Assembly: GCF_009914755.1 (NCBI RefSeq)
Contig: NC_060944.1
DNA: 64,000 nt
Reading direction: 5' to 3' (one strand)
Origin: the human T2T-CHM13v2.0 reference genome, Homo sapiens
Numbering within the stretch: position 1 is the first letter of the stretch; every line of letters begins with the position of its first letter. The position numbers and the translations under genes are program-made. Positions 41,779-48,996 of the stretch are shown one piece after another. The notes under the pieces were generated by a model. The model ran no database searches and was not told the DNA's origin. It saw only the letters and a list, made by a program, of their open reading frames with translations.

Positions 41779-42160
41779 TGAGATTACAGGCATGCATCAC
41801 CACACCCGGCTAATTTTTGAAATTTTAATAGAGACAGGATTTCACCATGTTGCCCAGGCTGGTCTCAAACTCCTGGCCTCAAGTCATCCTCCCGCCTCAG
41901 CCTCCCAAAGTGTTGGCATTACAGGTGTGAGCCACAGCACCTGGCCTCAGCACTCACTTATATAAATATGTTTTAAAATTACCTTTATCAAGGATAATCT
42001 ATATACAATAAAATGCACCAATTTCAAGTGTGTCTTGGTGACTTTTGACAAATTTATACATCTAGGTAACCAACAACAATTTATAGAATTTTTTCTTTTT
42101 CTTTTTACTTTTTCTTTGATATCTAATAATTGTACATATTTATGGGATCAATCTTTAGAA

Positions 42161-42281: not shown

Positions 42282-44537
42282 GCTTTTAGAGGCAGAGTCT
42301 TGCTCTGTCATCCAGGCTGGAGTTCAGTGGTGCAATGATAGCTCACTTCAGCCTCAATCTCTTGCACTCAGGCAATCCTCCTTCCTTGGCCTCCCACAGC
42401 ACTGGAGTTATAGGCATGAGCCACCATGCCTGGCCTAGAATTTTATATTGAGAAGTGAAGCCAGCTGGACTTCCTGGGTCAAGTGGGGTTGAGTGGGGAC
42501 TTGGAGAACTTTTTTGTCTAGCTAAAGGTTTGTAAACACACCAATCAGCACTCTGTAAAAACGCACCAATCAGCACTCTGTGTCTAGCTAAAGATTTGTA
42601 AACACACCAATCAGCACACTGTAAAAATGTACCAATCAGTGCTCTGTGTCTAGCTAAAGGTTTGTAAATGCATAAGTCAGCGCTCTGTAAAAACGGACCA
42701 ATCAGCACTCTGTAAAATGGACTAATCAGCGCTCTGTAAAATGGACCAATCGGCAGGATGTGGGTGGGGCCAAATAAGGGAATAAAAGCTGGCCACCCGA
42801 GCCAGCAGCGGCAACCCGCTTGGGTCCCCTTCCACAGTGTGACTTTTGACAAATTTATACATCTAGGTAACCAACAACAATTTATAGAATTTTTTCTTTT
42901 TCTCTTTAATTTTCTTTTTCTTTTTAATTAACTCGAACAAAGTGTGGGAGCTTTGTTCTTTCACTCTTCACAATAAATCTTGCTGCTGCTCACTCTTTGG
43001 GGCTGCACTAACTTTATGAGCTGTAACACTCACCATGAGGGTCTGTGGCTTCATTCCTGAAGTCAGCAAGACCATGAACCCAATGGGAGGAACAAACAAC
43101 TCTGGACGTGCCACCTTTAAGAGCTGTAACACTCGCTGTGAAGGCCTTCGGCTTCACTTCTGAAGTCAGCGAGACCACAAACCCACCGGAAGGAAGAAAC
43201 TCTGGACACATCTGAACATCTGAACAAACTCCGGACACACCATCTTTAAGAACTATAACACTCAGCACGAGGGTCTGCAGCTTCATTCTTGAAGTCAGCA
43301 AGACCAAGAACCCACCAGAAGGAACCAATTCCGGACACATTTTGACAACCCAGATGGGACACATTTTGGTGACTCCACCAGGACAGTCACCAAGCAGTGA
43401 GTACCTTTGGACCCCTTTCACTTGCTATTCTGTCCTATTTTTCCTTAGAATTTGGGGGTTAAATACTGGGCACCTGTCAACCAGTTAAAAGCGACTAGTG
43501 CGGCCACCAGACTAAAGACATGGGTGTCAGGCTTTCTGGGAAAGCACTCTCTAACAACCCCCAACTCTTCATAGTTGGGAGCGTTGGTTTGCCTGGAACC
43601 AGCTGCCGCTTTCCCTGTACTTCCGGGCTGAGCTGAGGGTTGACAGAATGGAAAGCCATTCAGCTCTGGGGTCCCAACAACAAGTCGGTTGACACTGCAG
43701 CCATGAGTGGAACTCTCAAAGTCATGTCACCCAAGCGAGACTCGCCCATCTATCATATCTATCCTGACCCTTGCCTCCTGGGTCCTAATGCTTGTCAGAC
43801 AAACTTCCTCTCACCTCTCTTCTCCAAGGCTAGTCCCACTTCTAAAAACCACTCCTTGTCTCTGGTGCTTTTCTAGTTTCTCCTATAAGAATGATCTCTA
43901 GTATAAACTACAGGACTCTATTCCCTTCTTTAGGCACCCAGGCTCACTAATCAGAAAGACACAATTTTTGCCCAAAGCCCCGTTGGGGGCGGGGGACTAT
44001 CTTATCTGGAATTTTAGTATCCCTCCTCAGACTAGCAGGCCTAACAAAAGCTATTCCTGAAGCTAGGATATGGGGAGCCTCAGAAATGATATCCTTCCTG
44101 TTCAAGTGAGGACAAAAGGCATCAGTCTTCCAACCCTGGAGATCCCTTCCCTCCCTCAGAGTATGGCCCTCCACTTCATTTTTGGGGCATAACATCTTTA
44201 TAGGATGGGGTAAAGTCCCAATACTAACAGGAGAACACTTAGGACTCTAACAGGTTTTTGAGAATGCGTCAGTAAGGGCCACTAAATCCAATTTTTCTTG
44301 GTCCTTTTTGTGGTCTAGGAGAACAGGCAAGGGCGCAGGTTTTTAAGAATGCATTGGTAAGGGCCAGTAAATCCGACTTTCCTTGGTCCTCCTTGTGGTC
44401 TAGGAGGAAAACTAGTGTTTGTGCTGCTGCGTCGGTGAGCGCAACTATTCTGATCAGCAGGGTCCAGGGACCGTTGTGGGTTCTTCGGCAGGGGGAGAAA
44501 CAAACAAACCAAAACCATGGGTGGTTTTGTCTTTCAG

Positions 44538-45996
44538 ATGGGAAACACTCAGGCATCAACAGGCTCACCCTTGAAATGCATCCTAAGCCATTGGGACCAA
44601 TTCGACCTGCAAATCCTGAAAAAGAGGTGGCTCAATTTTTTCTGCACTATGGCTTGGCCCCAATATTCTATCTCTGATGGGGAAAAATGGCCACCTGAGG
44701 GAAGTATAAATTACAATACTATCCTGCAGCTTGACCTTTTCTGTAGGAGGGAAAGCAAATGGAGTGAAATACCTTATGTCCAAGCTTTCTTTTCACTGAA
44801 GGAGAATACACAACTATGCAAAGCTTGCAATTTACATCCCACAGGAAGACCTCTCAGCTTACCCCCGTATCCTAGCCTCCCTATAACTCCCCTTCCTATT
44901 AATGATAATCCTCCTCTAATCTCCCCCACCAAGAAGGAAACAATCAAAGAAATCTCCCAGGGACCACAAAAACCTCCAGGCTATCAGTTATGTCCCCTTC
45001 AAGCTGTAGGGGGAGGGGAATTTGGCCCAACCTGGGTACATGTCCCCTTCTCCCTCTCTGATTTAAAGCAGATCAAGGCAGAGCTGGGGAAGTTTTCAGA
45101 TGATCCTGATAGGTATATAGATGTCCTACAGGGTCTAGGGCAAACCTTCGATCTCACTTGGAGAGATGTCATGCTATTGTTAGATCAAACCCTGGCCTTT
45201 AATGAAAAGAATGTGGCTTTAGCTGCAGCCTGAGAGTTTGGAGATACCTGGTATCTTAGTCAAGTAAATGATAGAATGACAGCTGAAGAAAGGGACAAAT
45301 TCCCTACCGGTCAGCAAGCTGTCCCCTGTATGGATCCCCACTGGGACCTCAACTCAGATCATGGGGACTGGAGTTGTAAACATCTGTTGACCTGTGTTCT
45401 AGAAGGATTAAGGAGAATTAGGAAAAAGCCCATGAATTATTCAATGATGTCCACCATAACTCAGGGAAACTAAGAAAATCCTTCTGCCTTCCTCAAGCGG
45501 CTATGAGAGGCCTTAAGAAAATATACTCCCCTGTCGCCTGACTCACTCGAGGGCCAATTGATCCTAAAAGATAAGTTTATTACCCAATCAGCCACAGATA
45601 TCAAGAGAAAACTCCAAAAGTGAGCCCTGGGCCCTGAACAAAATCTGGAGGCATTATTAAACCTGGCAACCTCAGCGTTCTATAATAGAGACCAAGAGGA
45701 ACAGGCCAAAAAGGAAAAGCGAGATCAGAGAAAGGCTGCAGCCTTAGTCATGGCCCTCAGACAAACAAACCTTGGTGGTTCAGAAAGGAGAGAAAATGGA
45801 GCAGGTCAATCACCCAGTAGGGCTTGTTATCAGTGGTGTGCAAGGACACCTTAAAAAAGATTGTCCAACAAGAAACAAGCTGCCCCCTCACCCATGTCCA
45901 CTATGCCGAGGCAATCACTGGAAGGCACGCTGCCCCAGAGGACAAAGGTTCTCTGGGCGAGAAGCCCCCAACCAGATGATCCAGCAACAGGACTGA
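44538..45996 (+). pseudogene. gag: HERV9 gag remnant (open for 231 codons, then stops and frameshifts)
   Basis: [23 protein letters not shown]...[19 protein letters not shown]...[14 protein letters not shown]; zinc-knuckle remnant CPLCRGNHWKARCP. Confidence 0.9.
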
Positions 45997-47364: not shown

Positions 47365-47866
47365 AATAGACTCTTTGATAGCATTGACTCTCCAAAACCA
47401 CTGAGGCCTAGACCTCCTCACTGCTGAGAAAGGAGGACTCTGCACCTTCTTAGGGGAAGAGTGTTGTTTTTACACTAACCAGTCAGGGATAGTACAAGAT
47501 GCCACCCAGCGTTTACAGGAAAAGGTTTCTGAAATCAGACAATGGCTTTCAAACTCTTACACCAACCTCTGGAGTTCAGCAACGTGGCTTCTCCCCTTTC
47601 TAGGTCCTGTGGCAGCCATCTTGCTATTACTTGCCTTCAGGCCCTGTATTTTTAACCTCCTTGTCAAATTTGTTTCCTCTAGGATCGAGGCCATCAAGCT
47701 ACAGATGGTCTTACAAATGGAATCCCGAATGAGCTCAACTAACAACTTCTACCAAGGACCCCTGGACCAATCTGCGGGCCCTTTCACTGGCCTAAAGAGT
47801 TCCCCTCTGGAGGACACTACAACTGCAGGGCCCCTTCTTCACCCCTATCCAGCAGGAAGTAGCTAG
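47365..47866 (+). pseudogene. env: HERV9 env TM C-terminal remnant
   Basis: Immunosuppressive-domain remnant [32 protein letters not shown], then the membrane anchor and tail (PCIFNLLVKFVSSRIEAIKLQMVLQME). Confidence 0.88.
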
Positions 47867-48996
47867 AGTGGTCATTGCCCAATTCCCAACAGCAGTTGGG
47901 TTGTCCTGTTTAGAGGGGGTATTGAGAGGTGAAGCCAGCTGGACTTCCTCCATCAAGTGAGGACTTGGAGAACTTTTCTGTCTAGCTAAAGGTTTGTAAA
48001 CGCACCAGTCAGCACTCTGTAAAATGAACCAATGAGCGCTCTGTAAAATGGACCAATCAGCAGGACATGGGCAGGGCCAAATAAGGGAATAAAAGCTGGC
48101 CACCTGAGCCATCAGTGGCAACCCGTTCGGGTCCCCTTCCACAGTGTGGAAGCTTTGTTCTTTCACTCTTCACAATAAATCTTGCTGCTGCTCACTCTTT
48201 GGGTTAGCACTACCTTTATGAGCTGTAACACTCACCACGAGGGTCTGTGGTTCCATTCCAGAAGTCAGCAAGACCACAAACCCACTGGGAAGAACAAACA
48301 ACTCCAGACGTGCCACCTTTAACAGCTGTAACACTGACTGCGAAGGTCTGTGGCTTCACTTCTGAAGTCAGCAAGACCACGAACCCACCAGAAGGAAGAA
48401 ACTCTGGACACATCTGAACATCTGAACAAACTCCAGACACAACATCTTTAAGAACTGTAACACTCACCACGAGGGTCCGCAGCTTCATTCTTGAAAGTCA
48501 GCGAGACCAAGAACCCACCGGAAGGAACCAATTCCAGACACAATATTACCTCAGAAACTCCGCTTGTGCCTCTTCTCAGTCAATCCCATACCCCCCGCCC
48601 CCAGTGCACACACACATATCAAGGCAATTGTTATGGATTTCTGTCACTATAAATTAGATTTGTCTTTCCTAAAGTTTCAATTAAATGGAATAATATACTA
48701 TATACTCTTGTGTCTGGCTTCTTTCCCTCAGCATGATGTTTTTGAGGTTTACCCATGTTGTTGTACATTAGTTCATTCTGTTTTTTGCTAAGGTTTAATT
48801 AGACTTATATAACAAATACTGGGCATGGTGGCATTACAGTAACTCAGGAGGCTAAGGTGGGAGGATCAATTTGAGGGCAGGAGAGTTTTGAAAGCAGTCT
48901 GGGCAACATAGCGAGACCCTGTCTCTACAAAAAAACAAAACAAAACAAAACATTAGCCGGGTGTGGTGGCTTCTGCCTGTATTCCCAGCTGCTTGG

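What the first reader, a model, noticed from the sequence alone, without database searches (positions are those of the whole stretch)
43331..43390. Tandem double primer-binding site in the HERV9 provirus, apparently for two different tRNA-Arg isoacceptors
Seen: after the LTR end (GGACACA, 43339) the sequence is TTT-[TGACAACCCAGATGGGAC 43343-43360]-ACA-TTT-[TGGTGACTCCACCAGGAC 43367-43384]. The 3' GGAC of the first 18-mer doubles as a second copy of the LTR end GGACACATTT. Recalled knowledge: the first 18-mer resembles the complement of the tRNA-Arg-CCG 3' end (TGGCGACCCAGATGGGAC). The second differs from the complement of tRNA-Arg-TCT (TGGCGACTCCGCCGGGAC) only at three CpG-decay positions. Inference: this records an aberrant plus-strand transfer. 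A mismatched Arg tRNA primed; its copy could not pair with the genomic PBS and re-annealed by GGAC microhomology at the U5 end, so both primer and template PBS were kept. That would be a direct record of primer-tRNA switching.
Basis: partly seen in the sequence, partly recalled or inferred. Interest (0 to 1): 0.8.

Follow-up and report, generated by a model that had tools for sequence, protein, structure and literature searches.

The report
Stacked tRNA primer sites in HERV9
An old human endogenous retrovirus carries two different tRNA primer-binding sites in a row, one of about a dozen such cases in its family, and these look like fossil by-products of reverse transcription started by the wrong tRNA.

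Summary
After the 5' LTR12 end come TTT, an 18-mer, a second copy of the LTR end (ACA) plus TTT, and a second 18-mer. A 12-nt exact repeat with period 24 frames them.

Against tRNA genes taken from the same genome:
- The first 18-mer is 16/18 complementary to the 3' end (+CCA) of a tRNA-Arg(CCG) gene.
- The second is 15/18 to an intron-bearing tRNA-Arg(TCT) gene, and all 3 differences are CpG-type transitions.

The two 18-mers differ at 9/18 positions against 8.4% LTR divergence, so simple duplication is rejected.

The architecture is neither private nor the standard leader:
- In a sample of 93 HERV9 5' junctions, 86 were single and 7 stacked.
- I found 12 stacked loci in all, with varied tRNA combinations.
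- This Arg(CCG)-Arg(TCT) pair is unique.
- Seven LTR12 elements end in U5-TTT-PBS-ACA directly followed by the target-site duplication.

Best reading: the plus-strand DNA end carrying the tRNA copy realigned on the GGAC at the U5 terminus. This keeps the primer copy upstream and the template site downstream. The mechanism is inferred, not shown.

The parts
42445..42448 (+). Left copy of the 4-nt target-site duplication (ATAT)
   Evidence: the same 4 nt directly precede the 5' LTR and follow the 3' LTR.
42449..43339 (+). 5' LTR (LTR12 type), ending in ...GGACACA. It carries a roughly 80-100-nt insert at about 42839-42917 that copies the upstream flank.
   Evidence: BLAST against the 3' LTR gives 91% over 403 nt and 90% over 151 nt. 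One search shows the U3 and U5 repeats. One search shows the insert is 96% identical to 42038-42117.
43333..43344 (+). First copy of the exact 12-nt repeat (U5 end + TTT + TG)
   Evidence: family D7, 100% identity, spacing 24.
43343..43360 (+). PBS 1 (type A): complement of the 3' end (+CCA) of tRNA-Arg(CCG), 16/18
   Evidence: against gene L114: 2 mismatches, 1 of them CpG-type. It has 5 and 6 mismatches to types B and C.
43357..43368 (+). Second copy of the 12-nt repeat. It consists of the last 4 nt of PBS 1, the re-copied LTR end ACA (43361-43363), the spacer TTT (43364-43366) and TG.
43367..43384 (+). PBS 2 (type C): complement of the 3' end (+CCA) of an intron-bearing tRNA-Arg(TCT) gene, 15/18
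   Evidence: against gene L113: 3 mismatches, all CpG-type transitions. It has 7 mismatches to each of types A and B. This type occurs in no other HERV9 copy found.
43385..43700 (+). HERV9 leader downstream of the PBS pair
   Evidence: 82-90% identity to the leaders of other HERV9 proviruses. The nearest is L065, at 90%.
44454..45996 (+). Decayed gag remnants (MA, p30 and zinc-knuckle fragments in separate frames)
   Evidence: Gag_MA E 1.8e-4, Gag_p30 E 0.009, zf-CCHC E 0.007. All are below Pfam's cut-offs.
47405..47866 (+). C-terminal env (TM) remnant. No pol domain was found, and the internal part is only about 4.6 kb.
   Evidence: TLV_coat E 2.2e-27.
47923..48542 (+). 3' LTR, ending in a plain ...GACACA with no PBS extension
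48543..48546 (+). Right copy of the target-site duplication (ATAT)

Best explanation
The doublet is a product of reverse transcription, not of later genomic duplication. A HERV9 genome whose primer-binding site was of the tRNA-Arg(TCT) type was primed by a non-cognate tRNA-Arg(CCG).

Proposed steps:
1. Plus-strand strong-stop DNA ended, as usual, with an 18-nt copy of that primer's 3' end, finishing in ...GGGAC.
2. This 3' end did not pair in register with the complement of the genomic site. It paired with the complement of the GGAC that closes U5 (...GGAC|ACA-TTT-PBS).
3. It was then extended, re-copying ACA-TTT and the template PBS.

The result is U5-TTT-[primer copy]-ACA-TTT-[template PBS]-leader at the 5' end and a normal 3' LTR.

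The event happened either in this provirus's own cycle or in a recent ancestor that then primed from the upstream site. The same realignment recurred in HERV9. It produced stacks of two or three sites, LTR right ends that carry a PBS copy plus ACA, and a long form that re-copied a 125-nt U5 unit.

Shown: the anatomy, the tRNA identities, the recurrence and the state of the LTR ends. Inferred: the order of events and the realignment itself.
For: This locus:
- Anatomy and the exact 12-nt repeat.
- PBS 1 has 2 mismatches to the tRNA-Arg(CCG) gene L114. PBS 2 has 3 mismatches, all CpG-type, to the Arg(TCT)-type gene L113.
- CpG decay of that degree is expected here. At 18 family CpG sites of the leader this copy keeps CG at 4, and the provirus CpG o/e is 0.22.
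- The two sites differ at 9/18 positions while the LTRs differ at 40/474 (8.4%). The binomial P is 5e-6 for a diverged duplicate.
- The 3' LTR is plain and the TSD is intact.

The family:
- 12 loci carry PBS stacks, always joined by ACA + TYT directly after a full 18-mer. Combinations are A-A-A x2, A-B x3, B?-A-B, K-B, K-A, A-C, B-unassigned, A-B-A', A-B-B.
- The K copy at C2:167.2M equals the tRNA-Lys(CTT) 3' end 18/18.
- The 3' LTR is plain in 8 of 8 stacked proviruses whose 3' end could be read.
- The upstream-most copy is type A in 8/12 stacks against 21/86 single sites (Fisher p 0.005). It is type B in at most 2/12 against 50/86 (p 0.011). The downstream-most copies (B 6, A 4, C 1, unassigned 1) resemble the single-site spectrum. 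This is what is expected if the upstream copy is a non-cognate primer copy and the downstream one is the genomic site.
- 7 LTR12 elements end in U5-TTT-PBS-ACA with the TSD directly after that ACA (4/4 nt in 3, 3/4 in 3, 0/4 in 1). PBS + ACA therefore works as an LTR terminus.
- At 2 loci a type-B copy is followed by a re-copied 125-nt U5 unit. The join lies at an 8-nt match between the PBS 3' end and U5. This shows realignment of the PBS-bearing end on U5 at a second site.
Against: - No other HERV9 copy with a type-C site was found. One search gave 16 matches, only this locus at 0 mismatches. I fetched 11 of the other 15 and none is HERV9. The postulated parent lineage is therefore unobserved.
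- This provirus's nearest leaders carry single A or B sites.
- Types A, B and C share their first 7 and last 5 nt, so in-register extension was not blocked outright.
- The leader tree is poorly resolved (0 of 88 inner branches at or above 95 support). Independence of the 12 stacks is therefore suggested (12 changes for 12 rows) but not proven. Two A-B stacks share an unusual variant of B and may be kin, which weakens the Fisher tests.
- One provirus (C4:164.0M) has a right-end A copy but a single B site at its 5' end. Simple inheritance from a stacked parent does not explain this.
- The tRNA comparison covered only genes matching my T-loop patterns (10 of 17 hits fetched, 3 of 23), not the full tRNA set.
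- ARAGORN mislabels L113. Its Arg(TCT) identity rests on its 5' half and anticodon loop, which closely match those of L119 and L122 by eye (called Arg(tct) with an intron), and on recall.
Confidence: 0.6

Rival explanations
1. Misaligned recombination, with no primer switch. Two HERV9 RNAs with different PBS types were co-packaged. During minus-strand synthesis the growing DNA, having copied PBS 2, TTT, ACA and GGAC of one RNA, switched to the GGGAC at the end of the PBS of the other RNA. That produced PBS1-ACA-TTT-PBS2.
For: Heterotypic pairs dominate: 10 of 12 stacks hold at least one unlike pair. One stack (C2:167.2M) has different spacers in its two units, TCT then TTT, as expected from two parents. 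Vargiu et al. 2016 report that HERV9 chains commonly show signs of recombination (PMC4724089, passages read). PBS types A and B are intermixed on the leader tree.
Against: It needs an intact U5 on the donor RNA at a stage when it is normally degraded (textbook model, recalled). It needs a type-C parent, and none was found. It does not predict the upstream enrichment of type A and depletion of type B, nor the homotypic A-A-A triplets. It does not by itself explain the right-end copies.
Confidence: 0.15
2. Inherited architecture only. The doublet arose much earlier in a stacked HERV9 lineage, and this locus merely inherited it. The downstream site was later changed to type C by non-cognate priming or mutation, so the locus records no event of its own.
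For: Stacked genomes seem transmissible. Two A-B stacks share an unusual variant of B. Two A-B-x triplets fall in the same weakly supported group. Right-end PBS copies in six solo LTRs are what priming at a downstream site of a stacked parent would give.
Against: The A-C pair is unique. Stacks are not clustered on the leader tree (12 changes for 12 rows against a shuffled mean of 11.5). If priming is from the upstream site, the downstream site is not rewritten by a primer. Seven mismatches separate PBS 2 from types A and B, too many for drift at 8.4% LTR divergence.
Confidence: 0.15
3. Post-insertion tandem duplication of a 24-nt unit (replication slippage on the 12-nt repeat), followed by divergence.
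For: The unit is framed by an exact 12-nt repeat. Homotypic A-A-A triplets elsewhere could arise this way.
Against: The two 18-mers differ at 9 of 18 positions while their 12-nt frames are identical and the LTRs differ by 8.4% (P 5e-6). Each 18-mer matches a different real tRNA gene.
Confidence: 0.03

Closest known systems
Alternative tRNA priming recorded in the PBS of HIV-1 and SIV (Fennessey et al. 2019, PMC6450007; abstract and outline read)
   Same: A non-cognate tRNA primes, and its 3' end is copied into the progeny PBS. The PBS sequence therefore reports which tRNA was used.
   Different: There the copy replaces the old PBS in register, at sub-percent frequency. Here the copy sits beside the old PBS, joined by a re-copied LTR end, and both are fossilised in the germ line.
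Aberrant or deferred second-strand transfer in HIV-1 proviruses with tRNA(Lys3) read-through inserts (PMC12657518; passages read)
   Same: This is an error at the plus-strand strong-stop and transfer step. It leaves primer-derived sequence next to the PBS in integrated DNA.
   Different: In HIV the insert continues into the tRNA body past position 58 and is coupled to large deletions. Here each copy stops at exactly 18 nt, the join is to the U5 terminus, and no deletion of the leader results.
Retroviral vectors built with two primer-binding sites (Voronin and Pathak 2004, J Virol 78:5402; seen only as an entry in a reference list; content recalled; PMC400373 is not held)
   Same: Two PBSs in one leader can both start reverse transcription. 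Starting at the downstream one carries the upstream PBS into U5 of both LTRs, which matches the LTR12 right ends with a PBS copy.
   Different: Those are engineered constructs with distant sites. Here the stacks arose naturally, lie 6 nt apart and hold different tRNA types.
PBS heterogeneity within HERV groups (Vargiu et al. 2016, PMC4724089, passages read; Grandi et al. 2016, PMC5016936, passages read)
   Same: Both report that HERV9 and HERV-W copies carry more than one PBS type and that PBS type is an unstable marker.
   Different: In the passages I read they score one PBS per provirus and do not mention stacked sites or PBS copies at LTR right ends. Vargiu et al.'s supplementary files held as text had no match to the three 18-mers I searched. 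Their large Table S1 may not be among the files held.

Membership tests
Retroviral primer-binding site | Lies a few nt downstream of the U5 terminal CA | tested here: met
   PBS 1 starts 3 nt after the LTR's CA. PBS 2 starts 3 nt after the re-copied ACA. The same spacing occurs in all the single-PBS HERV9 junctions printed, read by eye (86 singles counted).
Retroviral primer-binding site | About 18 nt complementary to the 3' end (including CCA) of a host tRNA | tested here: met
   PBS 1 is 16/18 to tRNA-Arg(CCG) gene L114. PBS 2 is 15/18 to Arg(TCT)-type gene L113, with all 3 differences CpG-type. PBS 1 now begins TGA rather than TGG.
Retroviral primer-binding site | Named tRNA is the best match among all host tRNAs | tested here: inconclusive
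   Only tRNA genes fitting two T-loop-anchored patterns were listed (17 and 23 hits), and 13 of them were examined. No complete tRNA set was available.
HERV9 (ERV9) provirus with LTR12 LTRs | Two homologous LTRs, a target-site duplication, a leader and gene remnants homologous to other copies | tested here: met
LTR pair and ATAT duplication. Leader 82-90% identical to other copies. Env TM domain E 2.2e-27.
Post-insertion tandem duplication | Copies differ no more than the neutral divergence since insertion | tested here: not met
   9/18 differences against 8.4% LTR divergence, P 5e-6.
Aberrant plus-strand (second) strand-transfer product | Junction lies exactly at the end of the 18-nt tRNA copy, which is the strong-stop position | tested here: met
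   In all but 1 of the 16 links in the 12 stacks, the next unit starts with ACA directly after a full 18-mer; the chrY stack L138 has 19 nt in its first unit. The 7 right-end copies are likewise full 18-mers followed by ACA (GCA in one), read by eye.
Aberrant plus-strand (second) strand-transfer product | Microhomology at the join | tested here: met
   GGAC is shared by the PBS end and the U5 end. The long form has an 8-nt match. The Lys-type copies share only 3 of these 4 nt.
Aberrant plus-strand (second) strand-transfer product | Only the 5' junction is changed and the 3' LTR is normal | tested here: met
   The 3' LTR is plain here and in 7 other stacked proviruses, 8 of 8 readable.
Aberrant plus-strand (second) strand-transfer product | Direct demonstration that reverse transcriptase makes the product | not testable with these tools
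   This needs a biochemical strand-transfer assay.
Stacked-PBS genome primed from the downstream site (as in two-PBS vectors) | Both LTRs carry the upstream PBS as a U5 extension | tested here: not met
   The 3' LTR of this provirus ends plainly. The feature exists elsewhere in the family at 7 LTR right ends.

The most novel reading that the evidence does not exclude
HERV9 changed primers by stacking. A mismatch-triggered realignment on the U5-terminal GGAC made genomes that carried the old and the new primer site together, both usable. Lineages could then move between tRNA-Arg(CCG), Arg(CCG/TCG), Arg(TCT) and Lys(CTT) without a non-viable intermediate. The order of sites in a stack would be a readable history of primer use, oldest downstream. 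The same slip fed PBS copies into U5 and may have built part of the LTR12 U5 repeats. PBS + ACA mimics the LTR terminus and was accepted by integrase.
Probability: 0.25. Interest if true: 0.75.

Novelty: new variant of a known kind. Interest (0 to 1): 0.6.

Why it matters
Which tRNA starts reverse transcription, and how a retrovirus changes that tRNA, is usually studied with engineered mutants. Natural switches are seen only as an in-register replacement that erases the old site.

These HERV9 stacks appear to keep both the primer copy and the template site. They would give a direct record, about 30 million years old, of non-cognate priming and of an error mode of the second strand transfer. 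At least five tRNA types are involved.

They also bear on practice:
- PBS type is unreliable for ERV classification.
- Annotation pipelines that score one PBS per provirus will miss or mislabel these loci.
- LTR ends can carry 24 extra bases that are part of the integrated element.

The PBS is also a target of host silencing by tRNA fragments (Viruses 2020, PMC7472051; search listing only). Stacking or switching could therefore matter for escape. That last point is speculation.

Tried and rejected
- Literature: four searches on ERV9/HERV9 PBS, stacked, tandem or second PBS, and the literal 18-mers found no description of stacked sites in HERV9. This covers only the open-access library. The classic ERV9 papers (La Mantia 1991; Lopez-Sanchez 2005) are not held, and neither is Voronin and Pathak 2004. 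The supplements of PMC4724089 held as text had no match.
- More stacks through the link motif: one search gave 102 hits against 19 in the controls. It returned only known stacks plus 8 candidates that proved to be unrelated DNA.
- A type-C lineage: none was found. A recurrent near-match string belongs to an unrelated repeat with no LTR12 or leader similarity.
- Assigning the second site of the chrY stack (C24:20.92M): it has more than 4 mismatches to types A, B and C and matches no listed tRNA end.
- Phylogeny of 93 leaders: too poorly resolved to count origins.
- PBS copy as tRNA read-through: I rejected by reasoning the idea that the ACA after a right-end PBS copy comes from reading on into the tRNA. 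The next tRNA bases would not give ACA without an extra misincorporation and a CpG decay at every locus.
- Abortive tRNA+6 primer re-annealing on the PBS end: rejected for this locus, because it predicts a PBS extension on both LTRs.
- ARAGORN without and with intron mode mislabels 3 of the 5 intron-bearing Arg(TCT)-type genes.
Full report
**Observation**

- LTR end ...GGACACA at 43339
- TTT at 43340-43342
- first 18-mer at 43343-43360
- ACA at 43361-43363
- TTT at 43364-43366
- second 18-mer at 43367-43384
- then a leader typical of the family

One search finds one exact 12-nt direct repeat (43333-43344 and 43357-43368, spacing 24). The end of the first 18-mer plus ACA-TTT-TG therefore repeats the LTR end plus TTT-TG. 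ARAGORN finds no tRNA gene in the window.

**Context**

The element is a bona fide, old, internally deleted provirus.
- The 5' LTR is 42449-43339 and the 3' LTR is 47923-48542. ATAT target-site duplications sit at 42445-42448 and 48543-48546.
- The LTRs differ at 40 of 474 aligned positions (8.4%), and 14 of these are CpG-type. With the formula quoted by Grandi et al. (T = D/0.13/2; PMC5016936, passage) that is roughly 30 million years, a rough figure.
- CpG o/e over the provirus is 0.22. At 18 family CpG sites in the leader this copy keeps CG at only 4.
- The inside holds weak gag fragments and a clear env TM end (TLV_coat E 2.2e-27). No pol domain was found.
- The 3' LTR ends plainly in ...GACACA followed by the duplication.

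**tRNA identity**

The whole genome of the window is searchable. I listed tRNA-like 3' ends with a T-loop-anchored pattern. It gave 17 hits, and the reversed control gave 39, so the pattern itself is not enriched. I fetched the 10 hits with a TTCGA loop and left the 7 TTCAA rows unexamined. All 10 are tRNA genes by ARAGORN:
- L114 (C17:68.9M) is tRNA-Arg(CCG). I call its 3' end type A.
- L115-L117 are Arg(CCG) and L118 is Arg(TCG). They share another 3' end, type B.
- L113 (C1:93.69M) has the 3' end I call type C.

ARAGORN mislabels L113. Its 5' half and anticodon loop closely match, by eye, those of L119 and L122, which ARAGORN in intron mode calls Arg(tct) with an intron. The name tRNA-Arg-TCT for the chr1 gene also agrees with my recall.

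Mismatch counts:

| Site | to type A | to type B | to type C |
|---|---|---|---|
| First 18-mer | 2 (1 CpG-type) | 5 | 6 |
| Second 18-mer | 7 | 7 | 3 (all CpG-type transitions) |

The comparison was not made against a complete tRNA set.

**Not a simple duplication**

The two 18-mers differ at 9 of 18 positions while their 12-nt frames are identical. At 8.4% divergence the chance of 9 or more differences is 5e-6.

**Is it private?**

No.

The exact doublet pattern has 13 genome matches against 1 for the control. Of these, 11 lie in HERV9 at 10 loci.

For an unbiased sample I took the 100 listed zero-mismatch matches of a U5-end + spacer + TG pattern. That pattern had 1681 matches at up to 2 mismatches, and the listing is capped at 100 rows. 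I fetched all 100 and sorted them:
- 4 are LTR ends with unrelated flank.
- 3 are LTR ends with a PBS copy (described below).
- 93 are proviral junctions: 86 with a single site and 7 with stacks.

The 86 single sites divide as follows:

| Type | Count |
|---|---|
| B | 50 |
| A | 20, plus 1 with a deletion |
| Pro-like (named from recall) | 13 |
| Lys(CTT) type | 1 |
| Lys(TTT) type | 1 |

With two further patterns the total is 12 stacked loci:

| Locus | Site order, 5' to 3' |
|---|---|
| C20:35879321 (this one) | A-C |
| C1:74586296 | A-A-A |
| C18:5248142 | A-A-A |
| C2:98279821 | A-B |
| C15:89970105 | A-B |
| C8:48611223 | A-B |
| C24:22055861 | B?-A-B (5' LTR missing; first unit read by eye) |
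| C2:135251257 | K-B |
| C2:167201088 | K-A |
| C24:20917581 | B-unassigned |
| C6:32367301 | A-B-A' |
| C11:85033251 | A-B-B |

K equals the 3' end of tRNA-Lys(CTT) genes, 18/18 at C2:167.2M. With one exception every link is ACA + TTT or TCT directly after a full 18-mer; the first unit of the chrY stack C24:22055861 has 19 nt. A few links carry single-base changes. The A-C pair is unique. A degenerate type-C pattern gave 16 matches, only this locus at 0 mismatches, and the 11 others that I fetched are not HERV9.

**LTR ends**

The 3' LTR is plain in 8 of 8 stacked proviruses whose 3' end could be read. In two more it is cut by unrelated, Alu-like sequence, in one none was found within 9.7 kb, and one was not examined.

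Conversely, 7 LTR12 elements end in U5-TTT-PBS-ACA followed at once by flank. Six carry type A and one a Lys-like copy. The target-site duplication abuts that ACA in 4/4 nt at three, in 3/4 nt at three and in 0/4 nt at one. Six are solo LTRs. One is the 3' LTR of a provirus (C4:164.0M) whose 5' site is a single type B. PBS + ACA recreates the terminal ...GGACACA.

Two further loci (C7:158.06M and C23:116.66M) carry a type-B copy inside U5 followed by a re-copied 125-nt U5 unit. The join lies where the PBS 3' end matches 8 nt of U5.

**Independence and direction**

A quick maximum-likelihood tree of 93 leaders is poorly resolved (no branch at or above 95 support). On it:
- The stacks need 12 changes for 12 rows (shuffled mean 11.5).
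- Types A and B are fully intermixed.
- Only the Pro-like group clusters (4 changes; 0 of 500 shuffles as low).
- This provirus is nearest a single-A copy, at 90% identity.

The upstream-most copy is A in 8/12 stacks against 21/86 single sites (p 0.005), and B in at most 2/12 against 50/86 (p 0.011). With the right-end copies added, A is 14/19 (p 9e-5). The downstream-most copies (B 6, A 4, C 1, unassigned 1) look like the single-site spectrum. Two caveats apply: some labels were read by eye, and some stacks may be kin, since two A-B stacks share an odd variant of B.

**Mechanism**

Shown:
- the anatomy
- two different real tRNAs
- the recurrence
- joins exactly at the 18-nt strong-stop position
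- GGAC shared by the PBS end and the U5 end
- plain 3' LTRs

Inferred:
- The upstream site is the copy of the tRNA actually used. The downstream site is the genomic one.
- The plus-strand end bearing the copy paired with the complement of the U5-terminal GGAC instead of in register, and re-copied ACA-TTT.

Three variants give the same product, and I cannot tell them apart:
2. Loop-out of the mismatched end onto U5 complement that the minus strand has just copied from the strong-stop DNA.
3. Slip-back while the tRNA is still attached, with the tRNA copied again. This best explains the A-A-A triplets and the long 125-nt form.

The bias towards unlike pairs favours a role for mismatch. The right-end copies fit progeny of stacked parents primed from the downstream site, as in two-PBS vectors (recalled). 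The C4:164.0M provirus then needs an extra 24-nt loss at its 5' end or a separate origin, and it stays unexplained.

**Comparison with print**

The nearest described cases are these:
- Alternative tRNA use in HIV/SIV is recorded as an in-register PBS change (PMC6450007, abstract).
- Deferred second-strand transfer in HIV leaves tRNA read-through inserts (PMC12657518, passages).
- HERV PBS heterogeneity is reported (PMC4724089 and PMC5016936, passages).

My searches found no account of stacked sites in HERV9. Closed-access ERV9 papers and large supplements could not be seen.

**Verdict**

The finding is real and correctly read at the sequence level. Its interpretation is the best available but unproven. 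It is one instance of a recurrent HERV9 phenomenon rather than a one-off.

Noticed in passing
window 42839-42917 versus 42038-42117: The R region of the 5' LTR is interrupted by an insert of roughly 80-100 nt. The insert is 96% identical to flanking DNA about 800 nt upstream, outside the provirus, and the 3' LTR lacks it. It looks like a templated insertion or a conversion from the flank.
   Followed up: partly
L115-L118 (G000 C6:28.62M, C6:28.76M, C16:3.18M, C17:75.93M): The commonest HERV9 PBS (type B) equals the 3' end of three tRNA-Arg(CCG) genes and one tRNA-Arg(TCG) gene. Vargiu et al. 2016 (PMC4724089) report that a tRNA database labelled this 18-mer as Trp(CCA) and proposed relabelling HERV9 sites W. 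The genes found here support Arg.
   Followed up: partly
L169/L170 (G000 C7:158060811 and C23:116659270): Two LTR12 copies carry a full type-B PBS inside U5, followed by a re-copied 125-nt U5 unit. The join lies at an 8-nt match between the PBS end and U5. The chrX copy is a 5' LTR with a second PBS and leader. The chr7 copy ends in flank.
   Followed up: partly
L133 (G000 C4:164009011-164019010): This provirus has a 3' LTR that ends in TTT + a type-A PBS copy + ACA, while its 5' junction has a single type-B site. The simple inheritance model does not explain it.
   Followed up: partly
L015 (C1:105151343), L029 (C3:51883624) and 13 loci such as L014, L027, L048: HERV9 copies with single sites of Lys(TTT) type, Lys(CTT) type and a Pro-like type. 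The Pro-like group always has the TCT spacer and clusters on the leader tree.
   Followed up: partly
L061 (C8:72823492) and L056 (C7:54123957): Other short tandem duplications at the PBS and leader. In L061 a roughly 40-nt unit starting inside the PBS is repeated. In L056 a leader segment just after the PBS is repeated. Many copies also differ by one or two copies of a 9-nt motif right after the PBS.
   Followed up: no
L063/L064 (C9:38.9M and C9:79.2M) and L106/L107 (C24:17.17M and 17.23M): Two pairs of HERV9 junctions have identical leaders. These are presumably segmental duplications rather than separate insertions.
   Followed up: no
window 43098-43339: The internal U5 repeat units of LTR12 each end in a sequence like the LTR terminus (…GGACACA + TCT…). 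The U5 repeats may themselves have come from slips at the strong-stop end. This is only a resemblance seen by eye.
   Followed up: no
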